Shown here: one piece after another, positions 4,361 through 51,421 of the stretch
How the letters are laid out: each line of letters starts with the position of its first letter
Position numbering within the stretch: the stretch's first letter is position 1
Assembly: GCA_020028455.1 (NCBI GenBank)
Contig: JAHZOA010000004.1
Coordinates: 1 to 52,700 of the forward strand
Reading direction: 5' to 3'
DNA: 52,700 nucleotides
From: Armatimonadota bacterium
Lineage (GTDB): Bacteria > Sysuimicrobiota > Sysuimicrobiia > Sysuimicrobiales > Kaftiobacteriaceae
Translations under genes and position numbers: made by a program
Notes under the pieces: generated by a model
Seen by the model: the letters and a program-made list of their open reading frames with translations, nothing else
What the model was told of the DNA's origin: nothing
Database searches by the model: none

Positions 4361-4645
4361 ATGTCCGAGGTCCGGGGTCCGAGAACCGATCCTAGGAAGC
4401 GCGCTGAACAGCTCCGAGCGGATATCAGTCGAGATCTTCACGCGCTGAGAGTAGTGGTGAGTAGGGGCAACCCGGCGGCCATCGCCCGAGAGGCCGCGCC
4501 GTCGGTCCCGGCATGGGTGGCCGGTGCCGTGGCGGGGATTGCAGCAGGTGTCTGGGCGGTATCCCGCCGCAGAGCCCAAACGGGGACGGCCCGTTACTCG
4601 TCCAAAGCTACAGAGCAAGTTATAATTGGACGTGGAGGTGGCTGA
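4361..4645 (+). CDS. Hypothetical protein with one C-terminal TM helix (DUF3618-like)
   Basis: Charged N-terminal helix followed by WVAGAVAGIAAGVWAV. Stop overlaps the tatA start (TGATG). Confidence 0.45.
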   Translation: MSEVRGPRTDPRKRAEQLRADISRDLHALRVVVSRGNPAAIAREAAPSVPAWVAGAVAGIAAGVWAVSRRRAQTGTARYSSKATEQVIIGRGGG

Positions 4646-4827
4646 TGCCCAATATCGGCTGGCCCGAATTGATCGTCATCCTTGTCATTGCTCTACTGAT
4701 CTTTGGACCGCAGCGGCTTGCGGGTATCGGCTCCGCCATGGGAAAGGCCATCAGGGAGTTCCGGGGAGCCGTACGCGACGCCGAGAACGAGATCGACAAG
4801 TCTACAACCCCGGACAAAAGACCTTAA
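4645..4827 (+). CDS. tatA: Twin-arginine translocase subunit TatA/E
   Basis: MPNIGWPELIVILVIALLIFGPQRL... is the canonical TatA N-terminus. GGAGGTG SD lies upstream. This is an internal start within ORF 4513..4827. Confidence 0.9.
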   Translation: MPNIGWPELIVILVIALLIFGPQRLAGIGSAMGKAIREFRGAVRDAENEIDKSTTPDKRP

Positions 4828-4838: not shown

Positions 4839-4921
4839 GTTGAAGGTTGAAGGTTGTAGGTTGAAGGTTACGGCGGGTGTGTCCCGTTTGAACCTTCAAC
4901 ATTCAACCTCCGACCTTCAAC
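4839..4921. repeat. Tandem-unit-arm hairpin repeat (unit GTTGAAG)
   Basis: Left arm 4839-4869 is GTTGAAG GTTGAAG GTTGTAG GTTGAAG GTT. Right arm 4891-4921 matches its reverse complement at 27/31 positions. Loop is 21 nt. Confidence 0.85.
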
Positions 4922-4935: not shown

Positions 4936-5670
4936 ATGGAAGACCGGCCGATGACGTTGATCGAGCATCTGGAGGAGCTGCGGAGGCGGCTGCTCATCTC
5001 AATTGCCGCTTTTCTTGTCGGGATGATCGTGGGTTGGTTATTTGTGGATCGCGTTCTGGGGGCGCTCATCCGTCCCATCGGGCACGTCGTCTTCCTCGCA
5101 CCAACCGAAGCGTTCTTTGTCCGCCTGAAGGTCGCAGCCCTCGCCGGAGTCTTCGTCAGTCTTCCTGTGGTGCTGGTCCAGATCTGGCTGTTTGTCTCAG
5201 TCGGCTTGACGCGGACGGAGCGCAGGTACACCCTTTCGCTGCTGCCCGTATCGCTGGTGCTCTTCGTCGCCGGCGCTCTGTTTGCGTTCTTTGCCATCCT
5301 TCCCGTCGGCGTGCGCTTCCTGCTCAGTTACCAGACGCCTGATCTGGTCCCGATGATCTCGGTCGCCGCGTACACGTCATTTGCCACCGCGTTTGTGCTG
5401 GCGTTTGGTTTGGTGTTCCAGCTGCCCATCGTGATCCTGTTCCTCGCCCGCCTGGGGATCGTGACCTCCCAGTCGCTTGCCGCCTGGAGGCGCTATGCGG
5501 TGCTGGGAATCGCCGTCGCCTCAGCCGTACTGACACCGGGCGGAGATCTCTTTTCCATGGTCCTGATGGCTGCGCCGACGTATCTCTTGTACGAAGCCAG
5601 TATCTGGATCGCGAGATTCGTGGCGCCGAAGTCCGTCGAGCGGCAGCAGTCCGCCCTGGGCAGCGAGTGA
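4936..5670 (+). CDS. tatC: Twin-arginine translocase subunit TatC
   Basis: LIEHLEELRRRL N-terminus and six hydrophobic segments typical of TatC. Confidence 0.92.
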   Translation: MEDRPMTLIEHLEELRRRLLISIAAFLVGMIVGWLFVDRVLGALIRPIGHVVFLAPTEAFFVRLKVAALAGVFVSLPVVLVQIWLFVSVGLTRTERRYTLSLLPVSLVLFVAGALFAFFAILPVGVRFLLSYQTPDLVPMISVAAYTSFATAFVLAFGLVFQLPIVILFLARLGIVTSQSLAAWRRYAVLGIAVASAVLTPGGDLFSMVLMAAPTYLLYEASIWIARFVAPKSVERQQSALGSE

Positions 5671-6059: not shown

Positions 6060-6755
6060 ATGGGCCGGCGTCACCATCTCACCATCCAGGCCCTACCACC
6101 TGAGCTAAGACCCCGTGAGCGGCTCTGCATGCATGGTCCCAGGGCCCTCTCGACCGCTGAGTTGCTCGCGATTGTCATCGGTGCTGGAACACGCGATGCC
6201 ACAGCGGTTGACGTAGGGGTTGCACTCCTGGCCCGCCATGAAACGCTGGGCCGCTTGTCCCAGGCATCGGTGCGAGAGTTGGCCGCGCACCGTGGGATGG
6301 GGCAGGCGAAAGCCGCCAAAGTCGTGGCCGCCCTCGAGCTTGGCCGCAGGCTGCTGGAGCCTCGTCCGATGCGGCCAGTGGTGCGGAGCGCGGCCGATGC
6401 GGCGGCCGTCGTGAGGCCGTCGATGGTGGGCCTTGACCGGGAGCATTTCCGCGTCCTCATGCTCAACACCAGGCACGAGATACTTGATATCGTGGAGGTG
6501 TCGGTGGGCGGGTTGAGCTCGGCGCCTGTGCACCCGCGCGAGGTGTTCAAGGAAGCGATTCGGGCCAGTGCAGCCGCGGTGATCGTCGTCCACAACCATC
6601 CGTCCGGCAGCTCTGAACCGAGTCGCGACGATGTGCTCATTACCGAGCAGCTCCGGGCCGCAGGCCGCCTCGTGGGCATCGAACTCCTCGACCATCTCAT
6701 CATCGGCGAGCGGTCATACACCAGCCTGCGCGAGGCGGGGCAGGGGTTTCCGTAG
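6060..6755 (+). CDS. radC: RadC-like JAB-domain protein
   Basis: PRERL..ELLAIVIG N-terminus and the JAMM motif HNHPSGSSEPSRDD. Confidence 0.85.
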   Translation: MGRRHHLTIQALPPELRPRERLCMHGPRALSTAELLAIVIGAGTRDATAVDVGVALLARHETLGRLSQASVRELAAHRGMGQAKAAKVVAALELGRRLLEPRPMRPVVRSAADAAAVVRPSMVGLDREHFRVLMLNTRHEILDIVEVSVGGLSSAPVHPREVFKEAIRASAAAVIVVHNHPSGSSEPSRDDVLITEQLRAAGRLVGIELLDHLIIGERSYTSLREAGQGFP

Positions 6756-6794: not shown

Positions 6795-7874
<1,080 letters not shown>

Positions 7875-8772: not shown

Positions 8773-9169
8773 TCCCGTGTTGGTGCTGGCCGTGGCGACA
8801 GGCTTTCTGCGGGGAGCAGAATCCGGCGCCGTGATCGGGCTGGCAGGGGGGTTGTTGCAAGATTTACTGAGCGGTGGCCCGCTCGGGATGCATGGGTTGA
8901 GCAAGCTGGTCGCCGGATTTGGTTCCGGTCTTTTTGAGCGGAGTATCTATATCGAGAACCCCTTTCTGCCCGCCGTCGCTGCCTTCGCAGGGACCCTCCT
9001 CGGTGAGGCGCTGTTGAACGTTATCGGCGTGGTGACCGGACTGGGATCGGTCTCATGGACAGAGGCTGTCCCCCGGGTGGTCATCCAGGCGGGACTCAAC
9101 AGTGTCATCGCCCCGCCGCTGTTCCGCGGCGTCCGATCCCTCGATGAGAGGTTCGAGAGACAACATTGA
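8702..9169 (+). CDS. mreD: Rod shape-determining protein MreD
   Basis: Polytopic 155-aa membrane protein after mreC. Overlaps the mreC 3' end by 71 nt in another frame. Confidence 0.75.
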   Translation: MLIVAALVQTAWLARLPGVGAVIDPVLVLAVATGFLRGAESGAVIGLAGGLLQDLLSGGPLGMHGLSKLVAGFGSGLFERSIYIENPFLPAVAAFAGTLLGEALLNVIGVVTGLGSVSWTEAVPRVVIQAGLNSVIAPPLFRGVRSLDERFERQH

Positions 9170-9212
9170 CGTACCGCGCGCCGCGGAACGCGTACCGCGG
9201 AACGCGATACGG
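9170..9212. repeat. Tandem near-palindromic 14-mer (CGTACCGCGGAACG) array
   Basis: Two full copies (9177-9190 and 9191-9204, 12/14 identical) plus partial copies at each side. Each unit is almost self-complementary around CCGCGG. Confidence 0.7.
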
Positions 9213-13819: not shown

Positions 13820-13843
13820 CTCCGCGAGGCGGTGGTGAAGAGC

Positions 13844-13934
13844 GGCGGGACGGGGACCTTGGACCGGGGACCCGGCAATCGGCTATGGAGTGACTTAGTT
13901 ATGGGTCCCCTTTCTCCAAGGTCCCCATCCCGCC
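13844..13934. repeat. Tandem-unit-arm hairpin repeat (units GGGGACC/TTGGACC)
   Basis: Left arm is GGCGGGA CGGGGAC CTTGGAC CGGGGAC CC. The reverse complement of the right arm is GGCGGGATGGGGACCTTGGAGAAAGGGGACCC. Loop is 29 nt and the termini are GGCGGG...CCCGCC. Confidence 0.85.
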
Positions 13935-13965
13935 GCCAAGGCCTCCTCGGCGCAGGCGACGGCCA

Positions 13966-16381: not shown

Positions 16382-16719
16382 CGTCATCACTGCGCTTGGC
16401 CCAGGTGGCCGCCGGGGCGATGGACGATCGGAAGGCCGAGGACGTGCTCGTGCTCGACATCAGCAAGCACACGCTGGTCGCGGACTATTTTGTGATCGGT
16501 TCCGCCGAGACAAACGTGCAGATCAAGGCGATTACGGAGGGTGTGGAGGAGGCTGTGGAGGAGGCGGGAGGCAGGTTGCTGGCCCGCGAGGGCCATGAGC
16601 GGGCGCGATGGGTGTTGCTGGACTTCGGGTCAGTTGTGGTGCACGTGTTTGGGCCCGAGGCGAGAAATCTGTATCGGCTGGAGCGTCTCTGGGCCGACGC
16701 GCCCATCGTCGCGCGTTGA
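16378..16719 (+). CDS. rsfS: Ribosome silencing factor RsfS (iojap)
   Basis: DDRKAEDVLVLDI...DYFVIGS...WVLLDFGSVVVHVF. ATGA overlap with the nadD stop. Internal start within ORF 16123..16719. Confidence 0.9.
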   Translation: MTSSLRLAQVAAGAMDDRKAEDVLVLDISKHTLVADYFVIGSAETNVQIKAITEGVEEAVEEAGGRLLAREGHERARWVLLDFGSVVVHVFGPEARNLYRLERLWADAPIVAR

Positions 16720-16888: not shown

Positions 16889-16971
16889 GCGGTCGTGGGT
16901 CGTAGGTCATAGGTCGTAGACAAGACAAAAGAGGCATTTGCCACGACCTACGACCGACGACCTATGACCGC
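16889..16971. repeat. Tandem-unit-arm hairpin repeat, GGTCGTR subfamily (copy 1)
   Basis: Left arm is GCGGTCGTGGGTCGTAGGTCATAGGTCGTAG. The reverse complement of the right arm is identical at 26/31 positions, and two of the differences still give G-U pairs. Loop is 21 nt and the termini are GCGG...CCGC. Confidence 0.9.
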
Positions 16972-17028: not shown

Positions 17029-17103
17029 GGGCCTGTAGCTCAGGGGGAGAGCGCCCGCTTGGCGTGCGGGAGGTCGCGGGTTCAATTCCCGCCAGGTCCA
17101 CCA
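17029..17103 (+). tRNA. tRNA-Ala (anticodon GGC), CCA encoded
   Basis: Cloverleaf folded by hand: 7-bp acceptor stem with G3:U70 (17031:17097), D arm GCTC/GAGC, anticodon loop TTGGCGT (GGC at 17061-17063), T arm GCGGG-TTCAATT-CCCGC, discriminator A, CCA at 17101-17103. Confidence 0.93.
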
Positions 17104-18184: not shown

Positions 18185-20683
18185 GTGACAGAACGCCATA
18201 ATCCGACCGCAATCGAGAAAAAGTGGCAGGCTCGGTGGGAGCAAGACCGCCTGCATGAGGCTAAGGATTTCGATCCAAAGCCGAAGTGGTATTTCCTGAC
18301 CATGTACCCGTATCCGTCCGGCGATCTGCACATCGGCCACTGGTACGCCATGGCGCCCTCCGACGCCGCAGCCAGATACAGGCGCATGCAAGGGTACAAT
18401 GTTGTGTTCCCGATCGGATTTGATGCGTTCGGGCTGCCGGCGGAGAATGCGGCGATCCAGCACGGCATTCACCCCTACAAATGGACCACAGACAACATCA
18501 ACCGCATGCGCACGCAACTGCGGTCGATGGGCGCGATGTGGGACTGGTCGCGGGAGATCGTCACCTGCGATCCTGAGTACTACCGGTGGAACCAGTGGTT
18601 CTTCTTGCGTATGTACGAGCGCGGACTGGCGTACCGGAAGCTAGCGCCGGTGGACTGGTGCCCGAAGGATAACACGACACTGGCACGCGAGCAGGTGGTG
18701 GGCGAGGAGCGCGTTTGCGAACGATGCGGTACCCCCGTGATCAAGAAGAACCTGGAACAGTGGTTCCTAAAAATCACCGCATACGCCGAGGAACTGCTGG
18801 ACTTCTCTGGGATTGCGTGGCCGGACCGTGTGCGGGTCCTGCAGGAGAACTGGATCGGGAAGAGCGTCGGCGTGGAGTTCGCCATGGAGGTGAAAGACCA
18901 CCCTGGCGTCTCGTTCCGGGTCTTTACGACCCGGCCCGACACCGTCTACGGGATGACATTCGCGGTGCTGGCGCCGGAGCATCCTCTGGTCGATCAATTG
19001 GTCACGCCGGACCGGCGCCGTGAGGTCGAGGCGTACAAGTTCAAAGCCGCCCGCGCATCGGATATCGAGCGGCTGTCCACTGAAAAGGACCGCGACGGTG
19101 TGTTTATCGGGGCCTTCGCCGTCAATCCGATGAGCGGCGAGCCGATGCCGATCTACATCGCCGATTACGTCCTGCTGACCTACGGCACCGGCGCCATCAT
19201 GGGCGTGCCGGCGCACGACGCGCGCGATTTCGAGTTTGCAAAGAAATACCAGCTCCCGATCCCGGTAGTGATCGCCCCACCTGGATGGGACGGCACGCCG
19301 TTGCGCGAGGCCTATCTGGGAGAGGGTACGATGGTCAATTCAGGCGCCTTCAGCGGCCTGCCATCAGTAGAAGGCTGGGAACGGATCGCAGACGCGATGG
19401 CAGCGCGCGGCATCGGTGAGCGAAAGATCAATTACCGCCTGCATGACTGGCTGATCAGCCGTCAGCGGTACTGGGGCACGCCGATCCCGATTATCTACTG
19501 CACGCACTGCGGCACCGTGCCTGTGCGGGACAATGAACTGCCGGTGGTGTTGCCGCTCGATGCAGAGTTCCGCCCGACAGGCGAATCACCATTGAAATTT
19601 CACGAGGGTTTCCGCCGCACGACATGCCCGAATTGTGGGCGCGGGGCCGAGCGAGAGACGGACACGATGGACACATTCATCGACTCGTCCTGGTACCAAT
19701 ACCGCTACGTGAGTCCCCATGAGGAACGTCACCCGTTCGAGGCCAAGAGGGGAACGTACTGGCTGCCGGTTGACCAGTACACCGGAGGCGTCGAACACGC
19801 GGTCATGCACCTCCTGTACACGCGCTTTTGGACGAAGGTGATGCGCGACATGGGGATGGTGCCGTTCGGTGAGCCGATGCTCCGGCTGTTCAACCAGGGA
19901 GTCATCCTTGGTGAAGACGGCGAGAAGATGAGCAAGTCTCGCGGCAACGTCGTCAACCCCGACGATTATGTTCAGAACGCCGGCGCCGACACGGTCCGCG
20001 GCTATCTGATGTTCATCGGTCCCTGGGACGGTGGCGGACCGTGGAACAGCAGGGGGATCGAAGGCATCAGCCGCTTTCTCCAGAGAGTTTGGAACCTAGT
20101 CACCGAGACAACGGGAACACGGGAACACGGGAACACGGGAACACGGAAGGATCCCGCAGCGTCTGATACGCGTTCCCGCGTTCCCGCGATCCCTGGTTCC
20201 CGAGATTTGGAGCATTGGACTCACAAAACCATTAAGAAGGTCACCGAGGATCTGGAAGGGTTCCACTTCAATACCGCGATCTCGTCATTGATGGAATACG
20301 TCAATTTCCTCTACGGCATACGCGATGAGCAGGTTGGTTCGGCGCAATGGGGTGAGGCGATGCGGAGCCTGGTCCTGTTGCTGGCACCAATGATGCCGCA
20401 CGTCGCGGAAGAACTGTGGGAGCAGATGGGTGAACCCTACAGCGTCCATCTTCAGCGCTGGCCGTCGTACACGGAAGGCTTGGCGAATGCCGAGGTGGTC
20501 ACGCTGGTGCTGCAGGTTGATGGCAAGGTTCGGGACCGCGTCCAGGCAGCGGCGGGTCTGCCTGAGTCTGAAGCGAGGACGATTGCGCTCGCCAATGAAA
20601 GGGTGAAGAAGTTCATGGATGGCCGCCAGGTCGCGGACGTGATTGTTGTACCCGGAAGACTCGTGAACGTCGTCACAAAATAG
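18185..20683 (+). CDS. leuS: Leucyl-tRNA synthetase, full length with CP1 editing domain
   Basis: PYPSGDLHIGH (HIGH), KMSKSRGN, editing motifs TTRPDT and GTGAIMGVPAHD, C-terminal tRNA-binding domain. Confidence 0.97.
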   Translation: MTERHNPTAIEKKWQARWEQDRLHEAKDFDPKPKWYFLTMYPYPSGDLHIGHWYAMAPSDAAARYRRMQGYNVVFPIGFDAFGLPAENAAIQHGIHPYKWTTDNINRMRTQLRSMGAMWDWSREIVTCDPEYYRWNQWFFLRMYERGLAYRKLAPVDWCPKDNTTLAREQVVGEERVCERCGTPVIKKNLEQWFLKITAYAEELLDFSGIAWPDRVRVLQENWIGKSVGVEFAMEVKDHPGVSFRVFTTRPDTVYGMTFAVLAPEHPLVDQLVTPDRRREVEAYKFKAARASDIERLSTEKDRDGVFIGAFAVNPMSGEPMPIYIADYVLLTYGTGAIMGVPAHDARDFEFAKKYQLPIPVVIAPPGWDGTPLREAYLGEGTMVNSGAFSGLPSVEGWERIADAMAARGIGERKINYRLHDWLISRQRYWGTPIPIIYCTHCGTVPVRDNELPVVLPLDAEFRPTGESPLKFHEGFRRTTCPNCGRGAERETDTMDTFIDSSWYQYRYVSPHEERHPFEAKRGTYWLPVDQYTGGVEHAVMHLLYTRFWTKVMRDMGMVPFGEPMLRLFNQGVILGEDGEKMSKSRGNVVNPDDYVQNAGADTVRGYLMFIGPWDGGGPWNSRGIEGISRFLQRVWNLVTETTGTREHGNTGTRKDPAASDTRSRVPAIPGSRDLEHWTHKTIKKVTEDLEGFHFNTAISSLMEYVNFLYGIRDEQVGSAQWGEAMRSLVLLLAPMMPHVAEELWEQMGEPYSVHLQRWPSYTEGLANAEVVTLVLQVDGKVRDRVQAAAGLPESEARTIALANERVKKFMDGRQVADVIVVPGRLVNVVTK
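20112..20202. repeat. Tandem-unit-arm hairpin repeat inside the leuS reading frame (unit CGGGAACA)
   Basis: (CGGGAACA)x4+CGG at 20112-20146. Imperfect inverted copy CGCGTTCCCGCGTTCCCGCGATCCCTGGTTCCCG at 20169-20202. Translated in frame as TGTREHGNTGTRKDPAASDTRSRVPAIPGS. Confidence 0.85.
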
Positions 20684-20755
20684 CGGTCGTGGGTCATGGG
20701 TCGTAGGTCGTGGAGACTGCATACCTACGACCCACGACCAACGACCTACGACCGC
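20683..20755. repeat. Tandem-unit-arm hairpin repeat, GGTCGTR subfamily (copy 2)
   Basis: Left arm GCGGTCGTGGGTCATGGGTCGTAGGTCGTGG, 10-nt loop, right arm ...CCTACGACCGC. The first base is the G of the leuS TAG stop. Confidence 0.9.
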
Positions 20756-20795: not shown

Positions 20796-22724
20796 GTGAA
20801 GCAGAAGTTTGACGTTCGCGCCATCGAAGACCGGTGGCGCCGGGCCTGGGAAGAGCAGGGGATCTACCGCACGCCGGAGCCTTCCACCAGGCCGAAAATG
20901 TACGTCCTCGATTTCTTCCCTTATCCCTCCGGCGATGGGCTCTCTGTGGGCCATGCGAGGAATTACGTACCCACCGACGTTCTGGCCCGCTATTTCCGCA
21001 TGCGCGGACATGCCGTGCTTCATCCGATGGGCTGGGATGCCTTTGGACTTCCCGCTGAGAACGAGGCTCTCCTAAAGCGCCGTCACCCGCGCGACACCAC
21101 CAGAGATTACTCGGCGAACTATCGGAGGCAGCTGCGGTTGATCGGCTGCTCGTACGATTGGTCGCGAGAGATCAGTACAAGCGATCCCGAGTTCTACCGG
21201 TGGACACAGTGGGGATTCCTCCTGCTGCTGCGTCGTGGGCTGGCGTACCGAGCGATGGGCTGGCAATGGTGGTGCCCGAAGTGCCGCACGATCCTGGCGA
21301 ATGAGCAGGTAGAGAACGGCCGTTGCTGGAGGCACACCGACACACCTGTCGAGAAGCGAGAGCTCGAGCAGTGGTACGTCCGCACGACCGCATACGCCGA
21401 TCGACTTTTGCACGATCTCGAGCGCGTGGACTGGCCCGAGCACATCAAGACGATGCAACGGAACTGGATCGGTCGTTTCGAAGAGGGGGGAACAGTCCGC
21501 TACCATTTGCATGACTGGCTCGTCAGCCGCCAGCGATACTGGGGCGCTCCAATACCGGTTGTGTACTGCGATCAGTGCGGGATCATCCCGGTGCCGGAAC
21601 ACCAGCTTCCTGTACTCCTTCCTGAAGTGGAATCGTACGAACCTGCGGGGACGGGGCGGTCACCGCTCGATGCGATGCCGGAGTTCGTGCACACATCGTG
21701 CCCGCGCTGTACGGGTCCCGCCCGGCGCGAAACTGACACACTGGATGGGTTCGCGGACTCGAACTGGTACTTCTTGCGGTTCGCCGATCCTTCGTATCGA
21801 GCCGGTCCATGGAATCCCGAGGCGATCCGCTATTGGATGCCGGTGGATTGGTACGTCGGCGGCGCGGAACAGGCGATCATGCACCTCCTGTATGCTCGGT
21901 TCTTCACCAAAGTGTTATTTGACGAGGGCCTCATTGAGTTTGAAGAGCCGTTCACCCGGCTGCGGAGCCAGGGGAGCATGCTGTCGCCGGTTGACGGTCT
22001 GCGCATGAGCAAATCTCGGGGCAACGTCGTGACGCCTGATGAGGTCGTAGACATCTACGGTGCTGATGCGCTGCGGGTCGCCGTGATGTTCATTGGACCG
22101 TTCGAGCAGGATGTCGCTTGGAATCCGGCGGTCGCCGCGGGCGCTGCGCGATTTGTGAGGAGGCTGTACCGGCTGCTGACACAACCTTCCACACACGGAG
22201 TCGGAAGTCGGGCCTCGGGAGTCGCCGGACAGAGGCATGATGTCCGATTACGCGTACATCAACTGATCAAATCTGCCGGAGAGGCGATTGAAAAGTTTCG
22301 GTTCAACACGCTGATCTCGGAAGTGATGACGTTCCTCAACGACGTAGAGGCGTGGAAACCTCAGTTTACAGGCACCGCGCTGTGGGACGAAATGACGGAC
22401 ACCCTGGTCAGAATCTGCGCACCTGTCACCCCCTTCGTGGCCGAAGACGCCTGGCACACCATGGGTCGGGAGGGAAGTGTGCATCACGCTCAATGGCCGG
22501 AGTATGATGCGTCACTGGTCCAGGACGTGACGCAGACCGTCATCATCCAGATTGATGGGAGAGTGCGAGACCGGATCACGGTGCCGCCGGATGCCGATCG
22601 CGATACCCACGTGCAGCTGGCGTCCGCGCGGTCTCGGGTGCGGGATGCCATTGGAAAACGGACCGTGAAACAGGTGGTGGTTGTGCCGGGGAAGGTCATC
22701 AACTTCGTGACCATAGACGCCTGA
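20796..22724 (+). CDS. Leucyl-tRNA synthetase paralog lacking the CP1 editing domain
   Basis: Collinear with LeuRS except that the 190 aa between NWIG and YxLHDWLxSRQRYWG are replaced by FEEGGTVR. HIGH reads SVGH and KMSKS reads RMSKS. Zn motifs CPKC..CWRH and CDQC..CPRC and the C-terminal domain are retained. Confidence 0.85.
   Translation: MKQKFDVRAIEDRWRRAWEEQGIYRTPEPSTRPKMYVLDFFPYPSGDGLSVGHARNYVPTDVLARYFRMRGHAVLHPMGWDAFGLPAENEALLKRRHPRDTTRDYSANYRRQLRLIGCSYDWSREISTSDPEFYRWTQWGFLLLLRRGLAYRAMGWQWWCPKCRTILANEQVENGRCWRHTDTPVEKRELEQWYVRTTAYADRLLHDLERVDWPEHIKTMQRNWIGRFEEGGTVRYHLHDWLVSRQRYWGAPIPVVYCDQCGIIPVPEHQLPVLLPEVESYEPAGTGRSPLDAMPEFVHTSCPRCTGPARRETDTLDGFADSNWYFLRFADPSYRAGPWNPEAIRYWMPVDWYVGGAEQAIMHLLYARFFTKVLFDEGLIEFEEPFTRLRSQGSMLSPVDGLRMSKSRGNVVTPDEVVDIYGADALRVAVMFIGPFEQDVAWNPAVAAGAARFVRRLYRLLTQPSTHGVGSRASGVAGQRHDVRLRVHQLIKSAGEAIEKFRFNTLISEVMTFLNDVEAWKPQFTGTALWDEMTDTLVRICAPVTPFVAEDAWHTMGREGSVHHAQWPEYDASLVQDVTQTVIIQIDGRVRDRITVPPDADRDTHVQLASARSRVRDAIGKRTVKQVVVVPGKVINFVTIDA
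22197..22224. repeat. Solo tandem heptamer array inside the leuS paralog
   Basis: GGAGTCG GAAGTCG GGCCTCG GGAGTCG, read in frame as GVGSRASGV. I found no inverted partner nearby. Confidence 0.6.
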
Positions 22725-22741
22725 CGGGTCACAAGAAAAGA

Positions 22742-22778
22742 GAGCACGGGGATCTCGGAAAACGCAATCCCCGTGCTC
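22742..22778. terminator. Bidirectional hairpin between convergent genes
   Basis: 11-bp stem GAGCACGGGGA / TCCCCGTGCTC with a 15-nt loop, between the leuS-paralog stop (22724) and the minus-strand stop at 22808. Confidence 0.55.
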
Positions 22779-22807
22779 CTGTCCTGCTTGCTTGCCCTGA
22801 ACCAGTG

Positions 22808-30929: not shown

Positions 30930-31033
30930 TTCGTGGCCGATAAGGCCAGCGCATCTTGCGAGTCGAACAAGGGAATAAAGGAACACACCAAGGTTCCTGC
31001 GTTCCCTTGTTCAATATGTAGGAATATAAGGGG

Positions 31034-34305: not shown

Positions 34306-34439
34306 GCGGTCGTGGGTCGTTGGTCGTAGGTCGTGGCGCAACCCCGCCGGCCTCGCAAGGAAATCGGCTGCCATTTCCGAAAGGATTCCTATTTTCAGGC
34401 GTGTTATCTACGAGCTACGACCCACGACCTACGACCGCT
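34306..34439. repeat. Tandem-unit-arm hairpin repeat, GGTCGTR subfamily (copy 3, long loop)
   Basis: Left arm GCGGTCGTGGGTCGTTGGTCGTAGGTCGTGG is 29/31 identical to the copy-2 arm. The reverse complement of the right arm matches at 27/31. Loop is 72 nt. Confidence 0.9.
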
Positions 34440-41866: not shown

Positions 41867-41890
41867 CGCGGAACGATAATTCGCCCGATT

Positions 41891-41913
41891 GGCGGGACGG
41901 GGACCTTGGACCG
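41891..41913. repeat. Solo arm of the GGGGACC hairpin repeat
   Basis: GGCGGGACGGGGACCTTGGACCG is identical over 23 nt to 13844-13866. There is no full inverted partner. Confidence 0.8.
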
Positions 41914-41946
41914 AGGCCTTCCCGGTCTCGCCACCAAGCACCTGCA

Positions 41947-43876: not shown

Positions 43877-43943
43877 GCGGTAGCCGCGATCCGGGTAGCC
43901 GGGTAGCCAACCGCATTTCAATTTATGGCTACCTGGCTACCGC
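43877..43943. repeat. Tandem-unit-arm hairpin repeat (unit GGGTAGCC)
   Basis: GCGGTAGCC GCGATCC GGGTAGCC GGGTAGCC, 18-nt loop, GGCTACCT GGCTACCGC. The right arm overlaps the last 15 nt (including the stop) of the acyl-CoA ligase gene. Confidence 0.8.
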
Positions 43944-45896
43944 AGTCACATCCCGAATTTGCAGGGTCGTGTGGACGTCGGTCGTGCGCCCATCCTCGTA
44001 TCGTACGGTAAATGTCGCACTGTATTCTGGAGCGCCGGCGCAGATGGCACGGATGAGGTCCTGATACCGCTCTGAGATGAAGTGCCGCCGCAGCTTCCGC
44101 GTCCGGGTCAGCTCGTCGTCGTCGGGGTGGAACTCTTTGTACAGGGATACAAATCGCGCAATCCGCCACTCCGGCCGCAGACGCTGGTTGACCCCGGCGA
44201 CGATCCCTTCCAGCAGGTCGATGACCTGGGTCTTCTGCGAGAGGTCGGCGTAGGAAGTGTACGCGATGCCGAGATCTTCGGCCCACTTCCCCACGCTGCG
44301 CTGATCGATATTGAGGATGGCTGATAGGGTCTTGCCATCAGGGCAGCAGGTCACCATGGCCTCCTGAATGTACGGCGTGAACTTGAGCATCGCCTCGATG
44401 ACCCACGGACTCATCTTCGTGCCGTCGGCGAGGGTGATCACGTCCGACATGCGGTCGAACATGATGATGTCTCCGGTCGGGTCCAGCGTCCCATAATCAC
44501 CAGAGTGCAGCCATCCATCGCGCAGCGCCTTGGCCGTCGCCTCGGGGTTGTTGTAATACCCGAGGAAGAGGCTCGGACTTCGTTCAATGATCTCGCCCTC
44601 ATCGGTGATGCGCACTTCTGTGTTCGCGATTGGATAGCCCATGGTCCAGAAATGGACTGCCCCTGCGCGGTGCACACATGAGATCCCCGCGATTTCCGTC
44701 TGGCCGTAGATTTGCTTAAGATTGACGCTCAGTGAGTGGAAGAATTTGAAATAGTCGGGGCCCAACGGCGACCCTCCGTTCCAGGCCACACGCATGTGCA
44801 GGAAGCCGATTTTGTCGAGGATGGGGCGATAGACAAGCCAGTGCGCGATCCATCGGGCCAGAGTCATCCATACTGGGATCGGTTTGCCTTCGGAGCGGCG
44901 ATCCACAATCCGGCCCCCCAGCCGGAGCGCCCAGTCGTAGATGGCCTTCCGGAGCCACCCGGCATCCAGGATCCGAACGGTTACCGCGGTGTGGAGTCCT
45001 TCATAGATCCGGGCGGGGGCAAACGTGAATTGGGGCGCAATCTCACGGAAGTCTCGTTGGGCCGTCTCGGGTTCTTCAGGGAAGTTGACCGTAAATCCCA
45101 CGAGCAAATGAAGGGTGGTAGAGATCATCTCCTCGCCGATCCACGCGAACGGCAGATAGGAGACGAACTCGTCCTGGCGCGTGATGTGCGGCTCGACGGC
45201 GTGGAAGTTCAGGCCCTGTGAAATGAGATTGCGGTACGACAGCATCGCCAACTTCGGCAGTGCGGTCGTGCCGGAGGTCTGGCAGAAGATGGCGACGTCG
45301 TCGCCGCGCCCCGCGTCAACGAGCCGGTCAAAGGATTCAGGATCACGAGCGAGCGCGGCCCGGCCCAGCTGTTCCATTTCGTCGAAGCCGACAAGCGCGG
45401 CGTGGCGGTAGCGCCACATGCCCCGTCTGTCCTCGACCACAATCCGCTGCACTTTCGGTAGCAGCGGCAGGAGCTCCAGCACCTTGTCCGCCTGTTCCTG
45501 ATCCTCGCAGAAGACCAGGCGCGCGGTAGAGAAGTCGATCAGCTGCGCCAGCTGTTCGGGCAGGCTGTCCTGGTACAATCCGTATGTCGTGCCGCCGACG
45601 CCCTGGGCGCCCATCGCGGCATAGAAGAGCTCAGGACGGTTATCCCCAATAATGGCCAGCACGTCGCCGCGCCCGAACCCCAGTTCGGTCAGTCCCATGC
45701 CGAACGCCCGGGCGCGCTCGTAGTATTGGCGCCAGGTGATCCGCTGCCAAATCCCGAGCTCCTTCTCCCGGAAGGCGATGCGGTCGGAAGAAGATTGCGC
45801 ATTCCGGCGGAGCAGCTTGGGAAACGTATCCGCCGCGGGATCGATGTCCAGGATGACGCGGCCGGCGGCTGGGCGTTCGAGGACAGTCTGGGCCAT
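43929..45896 (-). CDS. AMP-forming acyl-CoA synthetase (long-chain-fatty-acid-CoA ligase-like)
   Basis: AMP-binding signature FCQTSGTTALPK and later ligase motifs (YGQTE, GWLHSGD). Confidence 0.85.
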   Translation of the reverse strand: MAQTVLERPAAGRVILDIDPAADTFPKLLRRNAQSSSDRIAFREKELGIWQRITWRQYYERARAFGMGLTELGFGRGDVLAIIGDNRPELFYAAMGAQGVGGTTYGLYQDSLPEQLAQLIDFSTARLVFCEDQEQADKVLELLPLLPKVQRIVVEDRRGMWRYRHAALVGFDEMEQLGRAALARDPESFDRLVDAGRGDDVAIFCQTSGTTALPKLAMLSYRNLISQGLNFHAVEPHITRQDEFVSYLPFAWIGEEMISTTLHLLVGFTVNFPEEPETAQRDFREIAPQFTFAPARIYEGLHTAVTVRILDAGWLRKAIYDWALRLGGRIVDRRSEGKPIPVWMTLARWIAHWLVYRPILDKIGFLHMRVAWNGGSPLGPDYFKFFHSLSVNLKQIYGQTEIAGISCVHRAGAVHFWTMGYPIANTEVRITDEGEIIERSPSLFLGYYNNPEATAKALRDGWLHSGDYGTLDPTGDIIMFDRMSDVITLADGTKMSPWVIEAMLKFTPYIQEAMVTCCPDGKTLSAILNIDQRSVGKWAEDLGIAYTSYADLSQKTQVIDLLEGIVAGVNQRLRPEWRIARFVSLYKEFHPDDDELTRTRKLRRHFISERYQDLIRAICAGAPEYSATFTVRYEDGRTTDVHTTLQIRDVTAVAR

Positions 45897-46736: not shown

Positions 46737-46814
46737 GGTATAAGGTAAGGGTCTAAAGTATAAGGAGGGCAAAACCCAGGCTTTCCTTAAACCGTATACC
46801 TTAAACCTTATACC
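46737..46814. repeat. Tandem-unit-arm hairpin repeat (AT-rich units GGTATAA/GGTTTAA)
   Basis: Left arm GGTATAAGGTAAGGGTCTAAAGTATAAGGA. The reverse complement of the right arm is GGTATAAGGTTTAAGGTATACGGTTTAAGGA. Loop is 17 nt. The element ends at the TTG start of the next gene. Confidence 0.7.
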
Positions 46815-48053
46815 TTGAAATCCGATTTGTACTCCGATTCCGAATCGCGGCCCCACGCCGAGCGTCTGGCGTGGCAGGAAGAACGCCTCCGCGCGGTGGT
46901 CCAGCGAGCTGAACGGATGGCGCCAGCGCTCAGCGCGGCGCTTCAGGTCGCCGGACTCGCGGCGCAGGATCTCACCATCGCCGGGCTGTCCCGCATCCCC
47001 ATCCTGCGCAAAGAGACACTGCCGCTGCTGCAAGCGCAGCGTCCTCCGTTCGCAGGCTGGCTGGGGCGACCGATCGCAGACGCGAGGCATGTGTTCGTGT
47101 CGCCTGGTCCGATCTACGAACCCGTGAGCCGCGATGCCGATCCTTGGGGAGTCGCGCCGGCGCTACATGCGGCAGGATTCCGGCGCGGTGACATCGCGGT
47201 CAACAGCTTCTCGTACCACCTCACGCCGGCGGGCCAGATGTTCGACAGCGCGCTCGATGCACTCGGCTGTGTTGTGGTCCCTACCGGCGTCGGAAATCTG
47301 GAGATTCAGGTAAAGACGATCCTTGACCTGGGCGCGAGAGGGTTCATCGGCACGCCGAGCTTTCTGGCCTCGGTGTTGGAGAAAGCCGGTGAGCAAGGGA
47401 CCCCGCCGCCGCTGGCCGTCGCGTTCGTATCGGGCGAGCCGCTACCAGAGAAGCTGCGGCGCGCGCTTGAAGAGCGGTTTGGAATCCGTATCAGCCAGGC
47501 GTATGCCACGGCGGACGTCGGTCTTATCGCCTACGAGTGTCTGCGCCGTACGGGGTTGCATCTCGCCGATCGCGTGATCGTGGAACTTGTCGATCCCTCT
47601 TCAGGAGGTCCGGTCAAAGAGGGACAGGCCGGCGAGGTGGTCGTGACATATCTTAGCGAGGTCTATCCGCTGCTGAGGCTTGGGACCGGGGATCTCTCTC
47701 GGCTGGTCTCCGGCGAGTGCAGCTGCGGGAGGACCGCGCCGAGGTTAGATCGGATCCTGGGGCGGGTGGGAGAGGCGATCAAGGTCCGCGGGATTTTTCT
47801 TCATCCCCACGATCTCGATCGGGCGATGTCCAGTCATCCAAAGCTCCACGCGTACCAAGCCGTCATCACCCATACCGGTCATCAGGATAATCTGTTGGTC
47901 CGTGTGGAGGCACTCGAAGGCGAAGCACTGGTTTCTGCCATCGCGGAGAGTGTACGTGATGTCACGAGGCTTCGAGCCGAGGTGGAAGTCGTGCCCCCGG
48001 GCACGATTGGGTCGGACGCAAAGAAGATAGTTGACGAGCGGAAGTGGGAGTAG
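46815..48053 (+). CDS. Phenylacetate-CoA ligase-like (PaaK / coenzyme F390 synthetase family) adenylate-forming enzyme
   Basis: About 410 aa with the PaaK-like layout (IPILRKETL..., SGEPLPEKLRRALEERFGI...YATADVG, C-terminal ACT-like end). TTG start. Confidence 0.65.
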   Translation: MKSDLYSDSESRPHAERLAWQEERLRAVVQRAERMAPALSAALQVAGLAAQDLTIAGLSRIPILRKETLPLLQAQRPPFAGWLGRPIADARHVFVSPGPIYEPVSRDADPWGVAPALHAAGFRRGDIAVNSFSYHLTPAGQMFDSALDALGCVVVPTGVGNLEIQVKTILDLGARGFIGTPSFLASVLEKAGEQGTPPPLAVAFVSGEPLPEKLRRALEERFGIRISQAYATADVGLIAYECLRRTGLHLADRVIVELVDPSSGGPVKEGQAGEVVVTYLSEVYPLLRLGTGDLSRLVSGECSCGRTAPRLDRILGRVGEAIKVRGIFLHPHDLDRAMSSHPKLHAYQAVITHTGHQDNLLVRVEALEGEALVSAIAESVRDVTRLRAEVEVVPPGTIGSDAKKIVDERKWE

Positions 48054-48420: not shown

Positions 48421-48513
48421 GCGGAATCAGGAAGCAGGTAGCAGGAAGCAGCTACGACTCAAAAATTTGGCAGTCAGCTTGTTATCTGCTACCTGTTCCT
48501 GTTACCTGTTTCC
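48421..48513. repeat. Tandem-unit-arm hairpin repeat (units GGAAGCA/GGTAGCA)
   Basis: GCGGAATCA GGAAGCA GGTAGCA GGAAGCA GC. The reverse complement of the right arm (48486-48513) is GGAAACAGGTAACAGGAACAGGTAGCAG. Pairing is imperfect. Confidence 0.75.
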
Positions 48514-48518
48514 TGGGG

Positions 48519-48524
48519 TATAAT
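48519..48524 (+). promoter_or_regulatory. Candidate -10 box (TATAAT) upstream of rpsU
   Basis: Perfect TATAAT 5 nt after the hairpin repeat and 69 nt before the rpsU ATG. I found no convincing -35. Confidence 0.3.
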
Positions 48525-49380: not shown

Positions 49381-49482
49381 GGTCTCCCAGGTCTACTAGG
49401 TCTCCTCGGTCTTCTAAGTCTCCAATCATTTTGACGTTGCTTGAGACCTAGTAGATGTAGAAGACCAAGAGACCTAGTAGAC
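49381..49482. repeat. Tandem-unit-arm hairpin repeat (9-nt units GGTCTCCCA/GGTCTACTA)
   Basis: Left arm GGTCTCCCA GGTCTACTA GGTCTCCTC GGTCTTCTA AGTCTCC. Right arm GAGACCTAGTAGATGTAGAAGACCAAGAGACCTAGTAGAC. Loop is 19 nt. Confidence 0.85.
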
Positions 49483-49490
49483 TAGAGCGT

Positions 49491-51258: not shown

Positions 51259-51421
51259 GCGATGATGGGACTCGCCACCCCGGAGCGGCACGGTTCCTAC
51301 CGATATCGGGAACAAGCGCTGGTTGTCGCGTTAGCGCGTTGCCGCGTAACCGCGTCAGCCGGAAAATGGGTGGTACCGCGGGAGGATACCTCTCGTCCCT
51401 GTGACGAGGGGTTCTTGTTTT
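51259..51421 (+). promoter_or_regulatory. T-box riboswitch with ultrashort Stem I, specifier GCC (Ala), upstream of alaS
   Basis: K-turn GCGAUGA/GAGC. 4-bp helix closing a 9-nt loop ACUCGCCAC (GCC at 51274-51276, followed by A). T-box AAAAUGGGUGGUACCGCG at 51363-51380. Terminator CCUCUCGUC/GACGAGGGG plus UUCUUGUUUU at 51389-51421. Confidence 0.8.

What the first reader, a model, noticed from the sequence alone, without database searches (positions are those of the whole stretch)
4839..4921. Founding example of a hairpin repeat class whose arms are themselves tandem 7-9-nt repeats
Seen: an 83-nt imperfect palindrome lies between tatA and tatC. The left arm is GTTGAAG GTTGAAG GTTGTAG GTTGAAG GTT, the right arm matches its reverse complement at 27/31 positions, and the loop is 21 nt. 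The same architecture recurs at 13844, 16889, 20112, 20683, 34306, 43877, 46737, 48421 and 49381, with fragments at 22197 and 41891. Shared features are: arms of about 31 nt (17-43); each arm built from 3-5 degenerate tandem copies of a 7-9-nt unit that usually begins GG; loops of 10-34 nt (one of 72); frequent GCGG...CCGC terminal clamps. The unit sequence differs between loci: GTTGAAG, GGGGACC, GGTCGTR, GGGTAGCC, GGTATAA, GGWAGCA, GGTCTNCNA, CGGGAACA. The elements occupy most intergenic gaps longer than about 70 nt, roughly one per 5 kb, and often abut stop or start codons within 0-14 nt. Inference: a constant architecture with variable sequence is not what copy-paste MITE or REP families look like. 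It suggests either a structure-selected RNA/DNA element or a local generating mechanism such as slippage plus template switching. I do not recognise it as REP/BIME, ERIC, a TIR+TSD MITE or CRISPR.
Basis: partly seen in the sequence, partly recalled or inferred. Interest (0 to 1): 0.7.

Follow-up and report, generated by a model that had tools for sequence, protein, structure and literature searches.

The report
Hairpin repeats with tandem-heptamer arms
The window really is dotted with very stable hairpin-forming repeats whose two arms are runs of 7-9-base units, but they are small, fast-turning-over multicopy repeat elements of a kind already noticed in cyanobacteria, Geobacter and Xanthomonas, not the first example of a new class.

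Summary
The 83-nt tatA-tatC palindrome is exactly as described, and 10-13 hairpins of the same build lie in 52.7 kb, against about 0 in dinucleotide shuffles. Fold z-scores run from -3.4 to -10.

Slippage is shown directly: one arm differs by exactly two 9-nt units between near-identical genomes. But the elements do form copy families. Three GGTCGTR copies share GCGG/CCGC ends. One element recurs full-length, loop included, at another locus in a sister genome (86/91 identical). The GGTAGCC arm recurs at tatA-tatC in a relative.

Between genomes 97-99% identical, about 7 of 12 comparable elements are gained, lost, rearranged or replaced by unrelated hairpins at the same site.

One element lies in frame inside leuS and is shared by a clade. 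Others supply the stop codon and C-terminal tail of the upstream gene.

The architecture is already published: cyanobacterial STRR hairpins, Geobacter metallireducens paired tandem-repeat sites, and Xanthomonas convergent GGGAATC pairs. I also found it in Acidobacteriota, Gemmatimonadota, Chloroflexota and Verrucomicrobiota MAGs.

New here are a strand-symmetric polarity (G-rich 5' arm, 103 versus 26) and enrichment at gene 3' ends. Function is inferred only: an mRNA 3'-end or operon-internal stem-loop, not a classical terminator.

The parts
4839..4921 (.). El1, the finding itself. Hairpin with unit GTTGAAG x4.4, 31-nt arms and a 21-nt loop, between tatA (4645-4827) and tatC (4936-5670).
   Evidence: RNA fold -51.8 kcal/mol, z = -10.0. 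The same element occurs in relatives with 98% and 86% TatC identity. It is replaced or absent in others.
13842..13936 (.). El2. Hairpin GCGGCGGGACGGGGACCTTGGA...TCCAAGGTCCCCATCCCGCCGC with GGGGACC-type units, between rne/rng and rplU.
   Evidence: z = -7.4. A full-length copy, 86/91 identical including the loop, lies at another locus in L259. L125 has a different hairpin at this site.
16889..16971 (.). El3. GGTCGTR-family hairpin with GCGG...CCGC ends, upstream of the tRNA at 17029.
   Evidence: z = -9.2. Absent from L125, which is 97% identical.
20111..20206 (+). El4. Hairpin of ACGGGAAC x4.5 against GCGTTCCC, in frame inside leuS (18185-20683). It encodes ~TGTREHGNTGTRK...SRVPAIPGSR in the linker before the anticodon-binding domain.
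   Evidence: Inserts at the same site occur in LeuRS homologues of at least 75% identity. They are absent at 74% identity and below.
20683..20755 (.). El5. GGTCGTR-family hairpin that begins at the last base of the leuS stop codon TAG.
   Evidence: z = -9.0. Absent in L125, where leuS ends ...VVTKG* instead of ...VVTK*.
22197..22224 (+). One-armed heptamer array GGAGTCG x4 inside the second leuS-like gene (20796-22724), at the equivalent linker position.
   Evidence: Sequence. Domain positions.
30965..31012 (.). El13. Short hairpin with 8-mer units (GAACAAGG/GAATAAAG).
   Evidence: z = -7.3. The L125 copy has period 8 with autocorrelation 0.92.
34306..34438 (.). El6. GGTCGTR-family hairpin with a 75-nt loop. 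It fills the mucB/rseB-like to mazG spacer, 3 nt after the stop and 5 nt before the start.
   Evidence: z = -7.2. The orthologous site holds an 8-mer-unit hairpin in L126 and a 9-mer-unit hairpin in L127.
41889..41934 (.). El11. Remnant hairpin whose left 23 nt are identical to the left arm of El2.
   Evidence: L259 has two full inverted copies here, and the window retains the outer arms only.
43877..43945 (.). El7. GGTAGCC-family hairpin between the acyl-CoA synthetase gene (43929-45896, minus strand) and livH (start 43862, minus strand). It encodes the last 5 codons and the stop of the synthetase.
   Evidence: L259 has an unrelated hairpin at this site. The arm family recurs at tatA-tatC in L265.
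46737..46816 (.). El8. AT-richer hairpin (GGTATAA/CCTTAAA units) in the divergent livG to paaK-like spacer.
   Evidence: z = -4.6. Identical in L259 apart from a 1-nt indel.
48421..48515 (.). El9. GGWAGCA-unit hairpin 9 nt after the HIT-family gene stop.
   Evidence: z = -4.8. Near-identical in L259.
49381..49484 (.). El10. 9-mer-unit (GGTCTNCNA) hairpin that fills the yqeY to NUDIX spacer.
   Evidence: z = -5.1. L259 lacks exactly two units (18 nt) of the 5' arm.
51322..51355 (.). El12, a weak member. Self-complementary CGCGTTAC/GTAACGCG units, within a 135-nt segment absent from L259.

Best explanation
These are small, non-coding, multicopy palindromic repeat elements. Each is two convergent arrays of a 7-9-nt unit around a variable spacer. 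They are the same kind of thing as cyanobacterial STRR hairpins, the Geobacter metallireducens paired tandem-repeat sites and the Xanthomonas inverted GGGAATC pairs.

Shown here:
- They exist as families that are copied between loci within a lineage.
- They are gained, lost and swapped at gene 3' ends far faster than point substitutions accumulate.
- Their arms grow and shrink by whole units, which is replication slippage.
- The two arms stay complementary through change.
- They land where they are tolerated: after stop codons, between convergent genes, inside operon spacers, occasionally in frame in a permissive protein linker (leuS), or in the last codons of a gene, where the element then supplies the tail and the stop.

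Inferred:
- Because they are co-transcribed with the flanking genes, they form long stem-loops in mRNA.
- The stem-loops act like REP/BIME or STRR hairpins, as 3'-exonuclease barriers and segment stabilisers or as partial transcription/translation insulators. At tatA-tatC this would favour TatA over TatC output.
- They are not canonical Rho-independent terminators.
- The copying machinery is unknown. It could be a trans-acting enzyme, or ectopic conversion combined with hairpin-templated repair.
For: Families and copying:
- Searches show shared arms and whole elements at different loci.
- One search shows genome-specific units re-used at several sites. The orthologous mucB-mazG site carries 7-, 8- and 9-mer units in three genomes.

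Turnover at 97-99% nucleotide identity:
- El3, El5 and El12 are present or absent.
- L259 has an extra GGGGTTCG hairpin.
- El2 and El7 are replaced by unrelated hairpins.
- El11 is rearranged.
- El4, El8, El9 and El13 are conserved.

Slippage: the two-unit deletion in El10, arm homogenisation in leuS and the unit-number change at tatA-tatC.

Complementarity kept.

Location, from 130 elements in many phyla: 59% have an ORF of at least 90 codons ending within 30 nt of an edge, against 19.5% of random positions. Both edges (convergent genes) score 19% against 1.3%.

Coding effects.

Stability.

Published parallels: PMC2670836, PMC2700814 and PMC4692102. Heptamers are the commonest long simple sequence repeat (SSR) class, and slippage has been proposed as the cause (PMC4679880 citing Mrazek 2007).
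Against: - No target-site duplication or clean insertion boundary appears in the four filled/empty comparisons.
- No mobilising gene was identified. Only 52.7 kb plus flanks could be inspected.
- Copies with the same arms often have unrelated loops. This applies to the three GGTCGTR copies and to El7 against L265. It is unlike ordinary MITEs.
- There is no RNA-level signature. Sense-strand G.U against A.C mismatches are 45 against 57.
- There is no U-tract.
- The tatA-tatC element persists to about 75-86% TatC identity, so some copies are long-lived.
- There are no expression data.
Confidence: 0.6

Rival explanations
1. Each hairpin is generated and maintained locally, by slippage plus intra-hairpin template switching, under selection for an RNA or DNA structure such as a terminator or attenuator. 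There is no copying between loci.
For: - Slippage and concerted arm change are real.
- Many units are unique within the window.
- Same-arm copies have unrelated loops.
- The tatA-tatC element evolves in place over a long time.
Against: - There is 86/91 identity, loop included, between El2 and an element at a different locus.
- A 23-nt exact match links 13844 and 41891.
- The irregular 31-nt GGTAGCC arm is shared by two unrelated loci.
- Three GGTCGTR copies have identical ends.
- Unrelated hairpins occupy the same site in genomes 97% identical.
- There is no G.U excess on the sense strand and no U-tract.
Confidence: 0.15
2. The tandem units are arrays of binding sites for a DNA-binding or nucleoid-associated protein, arranged as inverted pairs. 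This is the IHF/HU 'global regulator site' idea proposed for Geobacter and the unidentified heptamer-binding factor proposed for Nostoc. On this reading the hairpin potential is incidental.
For: - PMC2700814 interprets the Geobacter families this way.
- bioRxiv 10.1101/2022.06.06.494920 reports effects of heptamer repeats on promoter activity in Nostoc.
- One window element (El8) lies in a divergent promoter region.
Against: - At least eight unrelated units occur within 52.7 kb, so no single protein could read them all.
- Units differ at orthologous sites in sister genomes.
- The main location is gene 3' ends and convergent gaps, not promoters.
- One element is an in-frame coding copy.
Confidence: 0.08
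3. The hairpins are scars of DNA break repair. G/T-rich unit repeats are added to both 3' ends of a break by a slippage-prone polymerase or reverse transcriptase, and the ends are then joined. This would automatically give the convergent polarity, with the G-rich strand running 5'->3' towards the centre.
For: - The polarity is strong and strand-symmetric: 103 against 26 overall, and 56 against 23 for by-catch elements that my search patterns did not select. Ordinary inverted repeats give 114 against 88.
- Xanthomonas pairs are described as always convergent.
- Unrelated hairpins occupy the same site in near-identical genomes.
Against: - The idea is pure inference, with no enzyme candidate.
- Whole elements, loops included, are copied between loci.
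- Loops of 15-100 nt of unique sequence are not predicted by simple end joining.
Confidence: 0.07
4. Chance low-complexity sequence or an assembly artefact.
For: None beyond the repetitive nature of the arms.
Against: - Shuffle controls rule out chance.
- Identical elements occur in independent assemblies from JGI, ENA, NCBI and Logan.
- Orthologous copies are conserved in relatives.
Confidence: 0.01

Closest known systems
Cyanobacterial STRR (short tandemly repeated repetitive) heptamer hairpins, e.g. the hupS-hupL spacer
   Same: - Tandem 7-bp units form a hairpin between co-transcribed genes or near gene 3' ends.
- They are multicopy, and their function is unknown.
- A role in transcript stability or translational coupling has been proposed (PMC2670836).
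- STRR also occur inside a structured RNA gene (Vioque 1997; title only).
   Different: - The host is not a cyanobacterium. Relatives are labelled Armatimonadota or 'Bacillati bacterium ANGP1' MAGs.
- Units differ and include 8- and 9-mers.
- Many copies have GCGG/CCGC clamps.
- Coding insertions, stop-codon donation and strain-level turnover are documented here.
Geobacter metallireducens paired tandem-repeat 'global regulator binding sites' (classes 1-3) and the GGACCGG x4 family (Aklujkar 2009, PMC2700814)
   Same: - Each site has 3-5 tandem repeats of 7-9 nt.
- Sites are paired on opposite strands with variable spacing.
- There are several species-specific multicopy families.
- Copies are intergenic and intragenic.
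- The GGACCGG unit resembles the units of El2.
   Different: - The Geobacter sites were interpreted as IHF/HU sites, and no hairpin or turnover analysis was done.
- Copy numbers of 16-49 per family are known there. Only a 52.7-kb sample is available here.
Xanthomonas GGGAATC heptamer repeats in convergent inverted pairs (Rehm 2015, PMC4692102)
   Same: - There are about 70-75 pairs per genome.
- The pairs are always one on the plus strand and one on the minus strand, in convergent orientation. That is the G-rich 5' arm polarity measured here.
- They are intergenic, and their length varies between species.
   Different: - In Xanthomonas one dominant unit is studied as a G-quadruplex former.
- Most units here lack G-tracts, and many families coexist.
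REP/BIME/REPIN elements of proteobacteria
   Same: - They are extragenic palindromes at gene 3' ends and between convergent genes.
- They occur as inverted doublets that form long hairpins.
- They are multicopy.
- They have known roles as mRNA 3' stabilisers and in regulation close to the stop codon (established knowledge, not tested here).
   Different: - REP arms are not tandem short-unit arrays.
- REPs have a conserved 5' GTAG and an associated RAYT transposase. Neither could be shown here.
Rickettsia palindromic elements (RPE)
   Same: They are palindromic repeats inserted in frame into protein-coding genes and retained as extra peptide segments. El4 in leuS is the analogue.
   Different: - RPEs are 100-150 nt and are not unit-periodic.
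- Only one clear coding case was seen here, plus one array in leuS2.
Rho-independent terminators
   Same: They are GC-containing stem-loops just after stop codons and between convergent genes.
   Different: - The stems are far longer, at 17-54 bp.
- There is no 3' U-tract or 5' A-tract.
- Many sit inside operons directly before a start codon.

Membership tests
STRR-type hairpins (cyanobacteria) | Arrays of at least 3 tandem heptanucleotide units | tested here: met
   TRF periods are 7 (or 14) at 4839, 16891, 20685, 34308, 46785 and 48423. Periods 8 and 9 occur at 20111, 43879 and 49381.
STRR-type hairpins (cyanobacteria) | Arrays occur as complementary pairs able to form a stem-loop between genes | tested here: met
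.
STRR-type hairpins (cyanobacteria) | Host is a (heterocystous) cyanobacterium, and units are CCCCAGT, TTGGTCA or CAACAGT | tested here: not met
   Closest proteins are from MAGs labelled Armatimonadota, 'Bacillati bacterium ANGP1' or bacterium. The units differ. Only the GGTCAT(A/G) variants resemble TTGGTCA.
Geobacter-type paired tandem-repeat sites | Each site has 3-5 tandem repeats of a 7-9-nt unit | tested here: met
   The definition comes from PMC2700814.
Geobacter-type paired tandem-repeat sites | Two sites on opposite strands with a variable distance between them | tested here: met
   Loops run from 14 to 78 nt in the window and up to about 200 nt in other genomes.
Geobacter-type paired tandem-repeat sites | Lineage-specific multicopy families, some copies intragenic | tested here: met
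   There are three GGTCGTR copies. El2 and El7 family copies occur at other loci in relatives. Genome-specific units are shown. The intragenic copy El4 is shown. Copy number per genome could not be measured.
Geobacter-type paired tandem-repeat sites | Bound by IHF/HU-type proteins (the authors' hypothesis) | not testable with these tools
   No binding data are available. The diversity of units argues against a single reader protein.
Xanthomonas convergent heptamer pairs / G-quadruplex repeats | Convergent orientation: the G-rich repeat on the plus strand is followed by one on the minus strand | tested here: met
   The 5' arm is G-rich in 103 of 129 elements. For the by-catch subset the count is 56 against 23.
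Xanthomonas convergent heptamer pairs / G-quadruplex repeats | At least 4 G-tracts of at least 3 G, able to fold into a quadruplex | tested here: not met
   Only El2 (GGGG) and El4 (GGG) have G-tracts. GTTGAAG, GGTCGTR, GGTATAA, GGWAGCA and GGTCTNCNA do not.
REP/BIME/REPIN | Conserved 5' GTAG followed by a short imperfect palindrome | tested here: not met
   GTAG occurs only inside some units (GGTCGTAGG). The ends are (ACT)GCGG...CCGC(AGT) in 5 copies and different in the others.
REP/BIME/REPIN | RAYT (IS200/IS605-like Y1 transposase) in the genome, flanked by the repeats | not testable with these tools
None of the 22 window ORFs scanned against Pfam or NCBIfam matched a transposase family, and the gene calls for the related loci carry no transposase domain.
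REP/BIME/REPIN | Enrichment at gene 3' ends and between convergent genes | tested here: met
   59% against 19.5% for any edge, and 19% against 1.3% for both edges.
MITE (TIR + TSD) | Terminal inverted repeats, with full-length copies at unrelated loci | tested here: met
   The arms are inverted repeats. The El2 family is 86/91 identical across loci.
MITE (TIR + TSD) | Target-site duplication flanking the insertion | tested here: inconclusive
   No clear direct repeat appears at four filled/empty sites: El3, El5, El12 and the L259 41090 insert. The boundaries are blurred by flanking changes.
Rho-independent terminator | Short GC-rich stem followed by a U-tract | tested here: not met
   Pooled flanks of 126 elements show no T-run. 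T or A is at most 0.30 at any position. The window elements are followed by sequences such as GCAGT or CAAGG.
Any Rfam family | Match at the gathering threshold | tested here: not met
   Only a tRNA at 17029-17100 matched.

The most novel reading that the evidence does not exclude
STRR hairpins, the Geobacter paired sites, the Xanthomonas convergent heptamer pairs and the elements found here in Acidobacteriota, Gemmatimonadota, Chloroflexota, Verrucomicrobiota and this uncultured lineage would be one unrecognised, pan-bacterial class of mobile or self-renewing DNA.

Its module would be a convergent pair of about 7-nt tandem arrays with an intrinsic 5'-G-rich polarity. A dedicated but unknown mechanism would make or move it, such as a hairpin- or array-specific enzyme, or repair synthesis at breaks.

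This class would continually rewrite gene 3' ends, supplying stops, C-terminal tails, operon spacers and even protein linkers.
Probability: 0.25. Interest if true: 0.75.

Novelty: new member of a known kind. Interest (0 to 1): 0.4.

Why it matters
The function and origin of heptamer-repeat hairpins have been open since STRR sequences were described in 1990. The scattered reports from cyanobacteria, Geobacter and Xanthomonas have never been joined up.

This window, with its sister genomes, gives a compact natural experiment. The same sites are seen filled, empty, resized by whole units or refilled with an unrelated element, at 1-3% background divergence.

The window also shows that such elements can donate stop codons and C-terminal tails. 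One has settled as a peptide linker in an essential enzyme (LeuRS) across a clade.

The strand-symmetric polarity and the dominance of 7 nt across phyla are simple, testable constraints on any mechanism.

Practically, these elements will break assemblies, mislead gene callers at 3' ends and inflate long ORFs in high-GC MAGs.

Tried and rejected
- **Sliding 130-nt MFE scan of both strands.** It is not specific in a 62% GC genome. Many coding windows fold as well as the elements, so I abandoned it for detection based on inverted repeats plus periodicity.
- **Ungapped detector.** It misses elements with indels (El7-El10). Counts from it are therefore lower bounds.
- **Metagenome scan for the GTTGAAG unit.** Only 17 of 120 hit loci were hairpins. 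It returned no further loci of the window's own genome, so it did not give a within-genome census.
- **RNA-strand test.** Sense-strand G.U against A.C mismatches were 45 against 57, so there is no evidence of RNA-level purifying selection.
- **'All-frame stop cassette' idea for the polarity.** 5' arms carry stops in all three frames somewhat more often than unit-shuffled controls do (27 against 18.7 +/- 3.2). But 61 of 134 have none, and only 3 of 11 window elements qualify. I rejected this as a general explanation.
- **A-/U-tract search in flanks.** Negative.
- **Loop clustering across all loci.** Few shared loops appeared, mostly within one genome or between two Thermoanaerobaculia MAGs.
- **Target-site duplication.** Not found.
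- **Taxonomic placement by name look-up.** It failed.
- **Literature searches.** Several timed out. Elhai 2008 and Vioque 1997 could not be read.
Full report

Yes. At 4839-4921 the two arms (4839-4869 and 4891-4921) are 31 nt each, 27/31 complementary, and 21 nt apart. TRF calls the left arm GTTGAAG x4.4.

The element lies between a 60-aa TatA gene (4645-4827) and TatC (4936-5670), 11 nt after the stop and 14 nt before the ATG.

As RNA it folds to -51.8 kcal/mol. Shuffles give -22.9 +/- 2.9, so z = -10.0.

Hairpins of the same build are confirmed at 13842, 16889, 20111, 20683, 34306, 43877, 46737, 48421 and 49381, and also at 30965 and (weakly) 51322. Their z-scores run from -3.4 to -9.2.

A strict ungapped detector finds 5-6 in the window and 0.0-0.17 on average in dinucleotide shuffles. 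It requires an inverted repeat of at least 17 nt plus arm autocorrelation at period 6-10.

The hairpins are present in independent assemblies from JGI, ENA, NCBI and Logan. Rfam matches only a tRNA.

**2. Corrections to the description**

The element at 20111-20206 is not intergenic. The ORF 18185-20683 is a full-length bacterial LeuRS (Pfam; NCBIfam leuS_bact 977 bits). The hairpin is read in frame as ...ETTGTREHGNTGTRKDPAASDTRSRVPAIPGSRD... It sits in the variable linker between RFLQRVWNLV and LEHWTHKTIKKVTEDLE, just before the anticodon-binding domain (alignment to T. thermophilus LeuRS).

Among 118 aligned LeuRS homologues the pattern is as follows:
- Those at 74% identity or below mostly have a linker region of 50-59 residues.
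- Those at 75-98% identity often have 57-78 residues at this site. The inserts are translations of the same octamer in three frames (GNAGTRERGNA ... SRVPAIP.SRD).

The DNA still folds as a hairpin in the window, L125, L126 and, shortened, in L127.

The 'fragment' at 22197 is a GGAGTCG x4 array at the equivalent linker of a second, editing-domain-less LeuRS paralogue (20796-22724).

The 'fragment' at 41891 is what is left of two adjacent inverted full elements that are intact in a sister genome.

About half of the gaps longer than 70 nt carry such an element. The rest carry ordinary hairpins.

**3. Families, not just an architecture**

- The three GGTCGTR elements (16889, 20683, 34306) share four units and GCGG...CCGC ends, often extended to ACTGCGG...CCGCAGT. 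Those ends are also seen on the GGTAGCC and GGWAGCA elements.
- El2 (13842-13936, rne-rplU spacer) is 86/91 identical, loop included, to an element at a different locus in L259. One of the five differences pairs with another as a compensatory C-G to T-A change in the inner stem.
- The irregular 5' arm of El7, GGTAGCCGCGATCCGGGTAGCCGGGTAGCC, recurs at 28/31 in the tatA-tatC spacer of L265 with an unrelated loop.
- Each related genome re-uses its own unit at several sites: CGGGAAC in L126, ATCTRTTGG in L127. The orthologous mucB/rseB-mazG spacer carries a 7-mer element in the window, an 8-mer element in L126 and a 9-mer element in L127.

This is the signature of intragenomic spread or homogenisation.

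**4. Turnover**

Two sister genomes cover 42 kb of the window at 97-99% nucleotide identity (L125; L259). Of the 12 elements that can be compared:
- Four are conserved (El4, El8, El9, El13).
- One differs by exactly two 9-nt units in one arm (El10).
- Three are present only in the window (El3; El5; El12).
- One is present only in L259, a GGGGTTCG-unit hairpin after the stop of the orthologue of 39795-41090.
- Two are replaced by unrelated hairpins with conserved flanks (El2 in L125; El7 in L259).
- One is rearranged (El11).

I saw no target-site duplication.

Insertions reach into coding 3' ends:
- leuS ends ...VVTK-TAG, followed at once by El5, in the window. It ends ...VVTKG-TGA in L125.
- The acyl-CoA synthetase ends IRDV-TAVAR* in the window and IRDV-GAKAEKLES* in L259. 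In each case the tail and stop are encoded by the resident element.

**5. The founding example through evolution**

| TatC identity | Locus | State of the tatA-tatC spacer |
|---|---|---|
| 98% | L263, L264 | Same element: two changes in the 3' arm, a 1-nt loop deletion |
| 89% | L265 | Only 1.8 GTTGAAG units remain, next to a GGTAGCC-family element |
| 86% | L267 | Same loop core (CGGGTGTGTCCCG), 5-6 units; GCTGAAG variant units on both arms; remaining non-Watson-Crick pairs include several G.U on the sense strand |
| 76% | L269 | Empty 34-nt spacer with a Shine-Dalgarno motif |
| 75% | L268 | Related GGAGGTT/GGTTGRA unit with another loop |

So this copy is old in some lineages. It changes by whole units, keeps its pairing, and can be overwritten or lost.

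**6. Distribution and general properties**

These were mostly MAGs of Acidobacteriota (Terriglobia, Thermoanaerobaculia), Gemmatimonadota, Chloroflexota, Verrucomicrobiota and Planctomycetota.

Many of the hits are hairpins of this build. The same 8-kb loci carry further hairpins with other units, such as GGTGAAC, TGAATGT, TTAGCTC and GTAATTGA.

Over 130-134 elements from all loci:
- Period 7 dominates: 105 of 130 overall, and 54 of 81 among by-catch elements that my patterns did not select.
- 59% have a long ORF ending within 30 nt of an edge, against 19.5% of random positions. The 'both edges' (convergent) class is 19% against 1.3%.
- There is no A-/U-tract.
- Sense-strand G.U and A.C mismatches are equal, at 45 and 57.
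- The 5' arm is G-rich and the 3' arm C-rich in 103 against 26 elements. The by-catch count is 56 against 23 (p = 3e-4). Ordinary inverted repeats give 114 against 88.

For an inverted repeat the 5' arm reads the same on both strands. This polarity is therefore intrinsic to the element and not an orientation relative to genes or replication. I have no secure explanation for it.

**7. What is known**

- PMC2670836 states that STRR sequences, usually 7-bp repeats, can form hairpins. [quoted passage not shown] Their function is unknown, with transcript stability or translational coupling proposed.
- The G. metallireducens genome paper (PMC2700814) annotated species-specific families of paired sites on opposite strands, each of 3-5 tandem 7-9-nt repeats with variable spacing. 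It also annotated a GGACCGG x4 family at 49 intergenic and intragenic places, and guessed at IHF/HU binding.
- Rehm et al. (PMC4692102) found 70-75 convergent inverted pairs of GGGAATC repeats per Xanthomonas genome.
- PMC4679880 summarises Mrazek 2007. Heptanucleotide SSRs are the most abundant long SSR class in most prokaryotes, possibly because 7 nt matches a polymerase contact length that favours slippage.

The architecture is therefore published, though scattered, unnamed as a class and mechanistically unexplained.

**8. Mechanism**

Shown:
- Copying between loci.
- Rapid gain, loss and replacement at gene 3' ends.
- Whole-unit slippage.
- Maintained complementarity.
- Tolerance in a protein linker.
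- Donation of stops and C-terminal tails.

Inferred: the elements are transcribed within operons and 3' UTRs. There, hairpins of 25-54 bp would block 3'-exonucleases and partly insulate transcription and translation, as REP/BIME and the proposed STRR role do. At tatA-tatC this would raise TatA over TatC.

Not supported:
- A role as a classical intrinsic terminator, because there is no U-tract.
- A single protein-binding code, because there are too many units.
- RNA-strand-specific selection.

The copying machinery and the cause of the polarity remain unknown. A break-repair origin would predict the polarity but is speculative.

**9. Verdict**

It is a new member (in fact a set of families) of a known but neglected kind, not a founding example.

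Added value from this analysis:
- The cross-phylum reach.
- The polarity.
- The measured turnover.
- The leuS in-frame copy.
- The stop and tail donation.

Noticed in passing
window 20796-22724: A second bacterial-type LeuRS lies directly downstream of leuS. It is 642 aa and scores 723 bits on leuS_bact in two stretches, and it lacks the CP1 editing domain. It is absent from L125 (97% identical), where only GTG-AAG-ACG-CCT-TGA remains (first 2 and last 3 codons). This looks like a clean deletion in L125.
   Followed up: partly
window 22197-22224: A GGAGTCG x4 heptamer array lies inside the leuS paralogue. It is at the same linker position (before the anticodon-binding domain) where leuS carries its hairpin. 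That linker seems to be a tolerant or preferred landing site.
   Followed up: partly
all loci: There is a strand-symmetric polarity. The 5' arm is G-rich (G/T-rich) and the 3' arm C-rich in about 80% of periodic-arm hairpins across phyla. This matches the 'convergent' Xanthomonas pairs. It is unexplained.
   Followed up: partly
window 8694/8695 vs L125 545-599: L125 has 55 extra nt at the mreC-mreD junction. These carry the mreC stop and the spacer. In the window the two ORFs run together.
   Followed up: no
window 31410-31500: A non-periodic segment of about 90 nt is present in the window and absent in L125. It lies downstream of an ordinary terminator-like hairpin at 31314-31349.
   Followed up: no
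L259 (reverse strand) 6563-6639, orthologous to window 41090/41091: A 77-nt hairpin with GGGGTTCG/CGAACCCC units is present in L259 only, right after the TAA of the upstream gene. TTCTAA and TTCTTAA lie at its two ends and may or may not be a target duplication.
   Followed up: partly
window 9121-9206: CGCGGAA/GTTCCGCG repeats form an imperfect hairpin just upstream of the PBP2 gene start (9228). The L125 version scores as an 8-mer periodic hairpin. It is a possible further member.
   Followed up: no
window 22740-22780, 39614-39680: Strong non-periodic hairpins lie at a convergent gap and after the gene ending at 39604. These are ordinary terminator-like structures that coexist with the periodic class.
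   Followed up: no
window 16536-16565 and 7352-7418: Two in-gene tandem repeats: a 12-nt unit x2.5 inside rsfS and a 33-nt unit x2 inside the MreB-like gene. They are unrelated to the hairpin class.
   Followed up: no
L009 7434-7524 vs L015 1346-1434 (two Thermoanaerobaculia MAGs): Two GGTCGTN-armed hairpins share an inner GGGGGC...GCCCCC stem and a 19-nt loop core in opposite orientation. This shows whole-element families with conserved loops in another phylum.
   Followed up: partly
window 48516-48932: A TATAAT-like motif (GGGGTATAATG) lies directly after El9. A 417-nt stretch before yqeY has no gene call in any of the related loci. It is a possible small gene or RNA.
   Followed up: no
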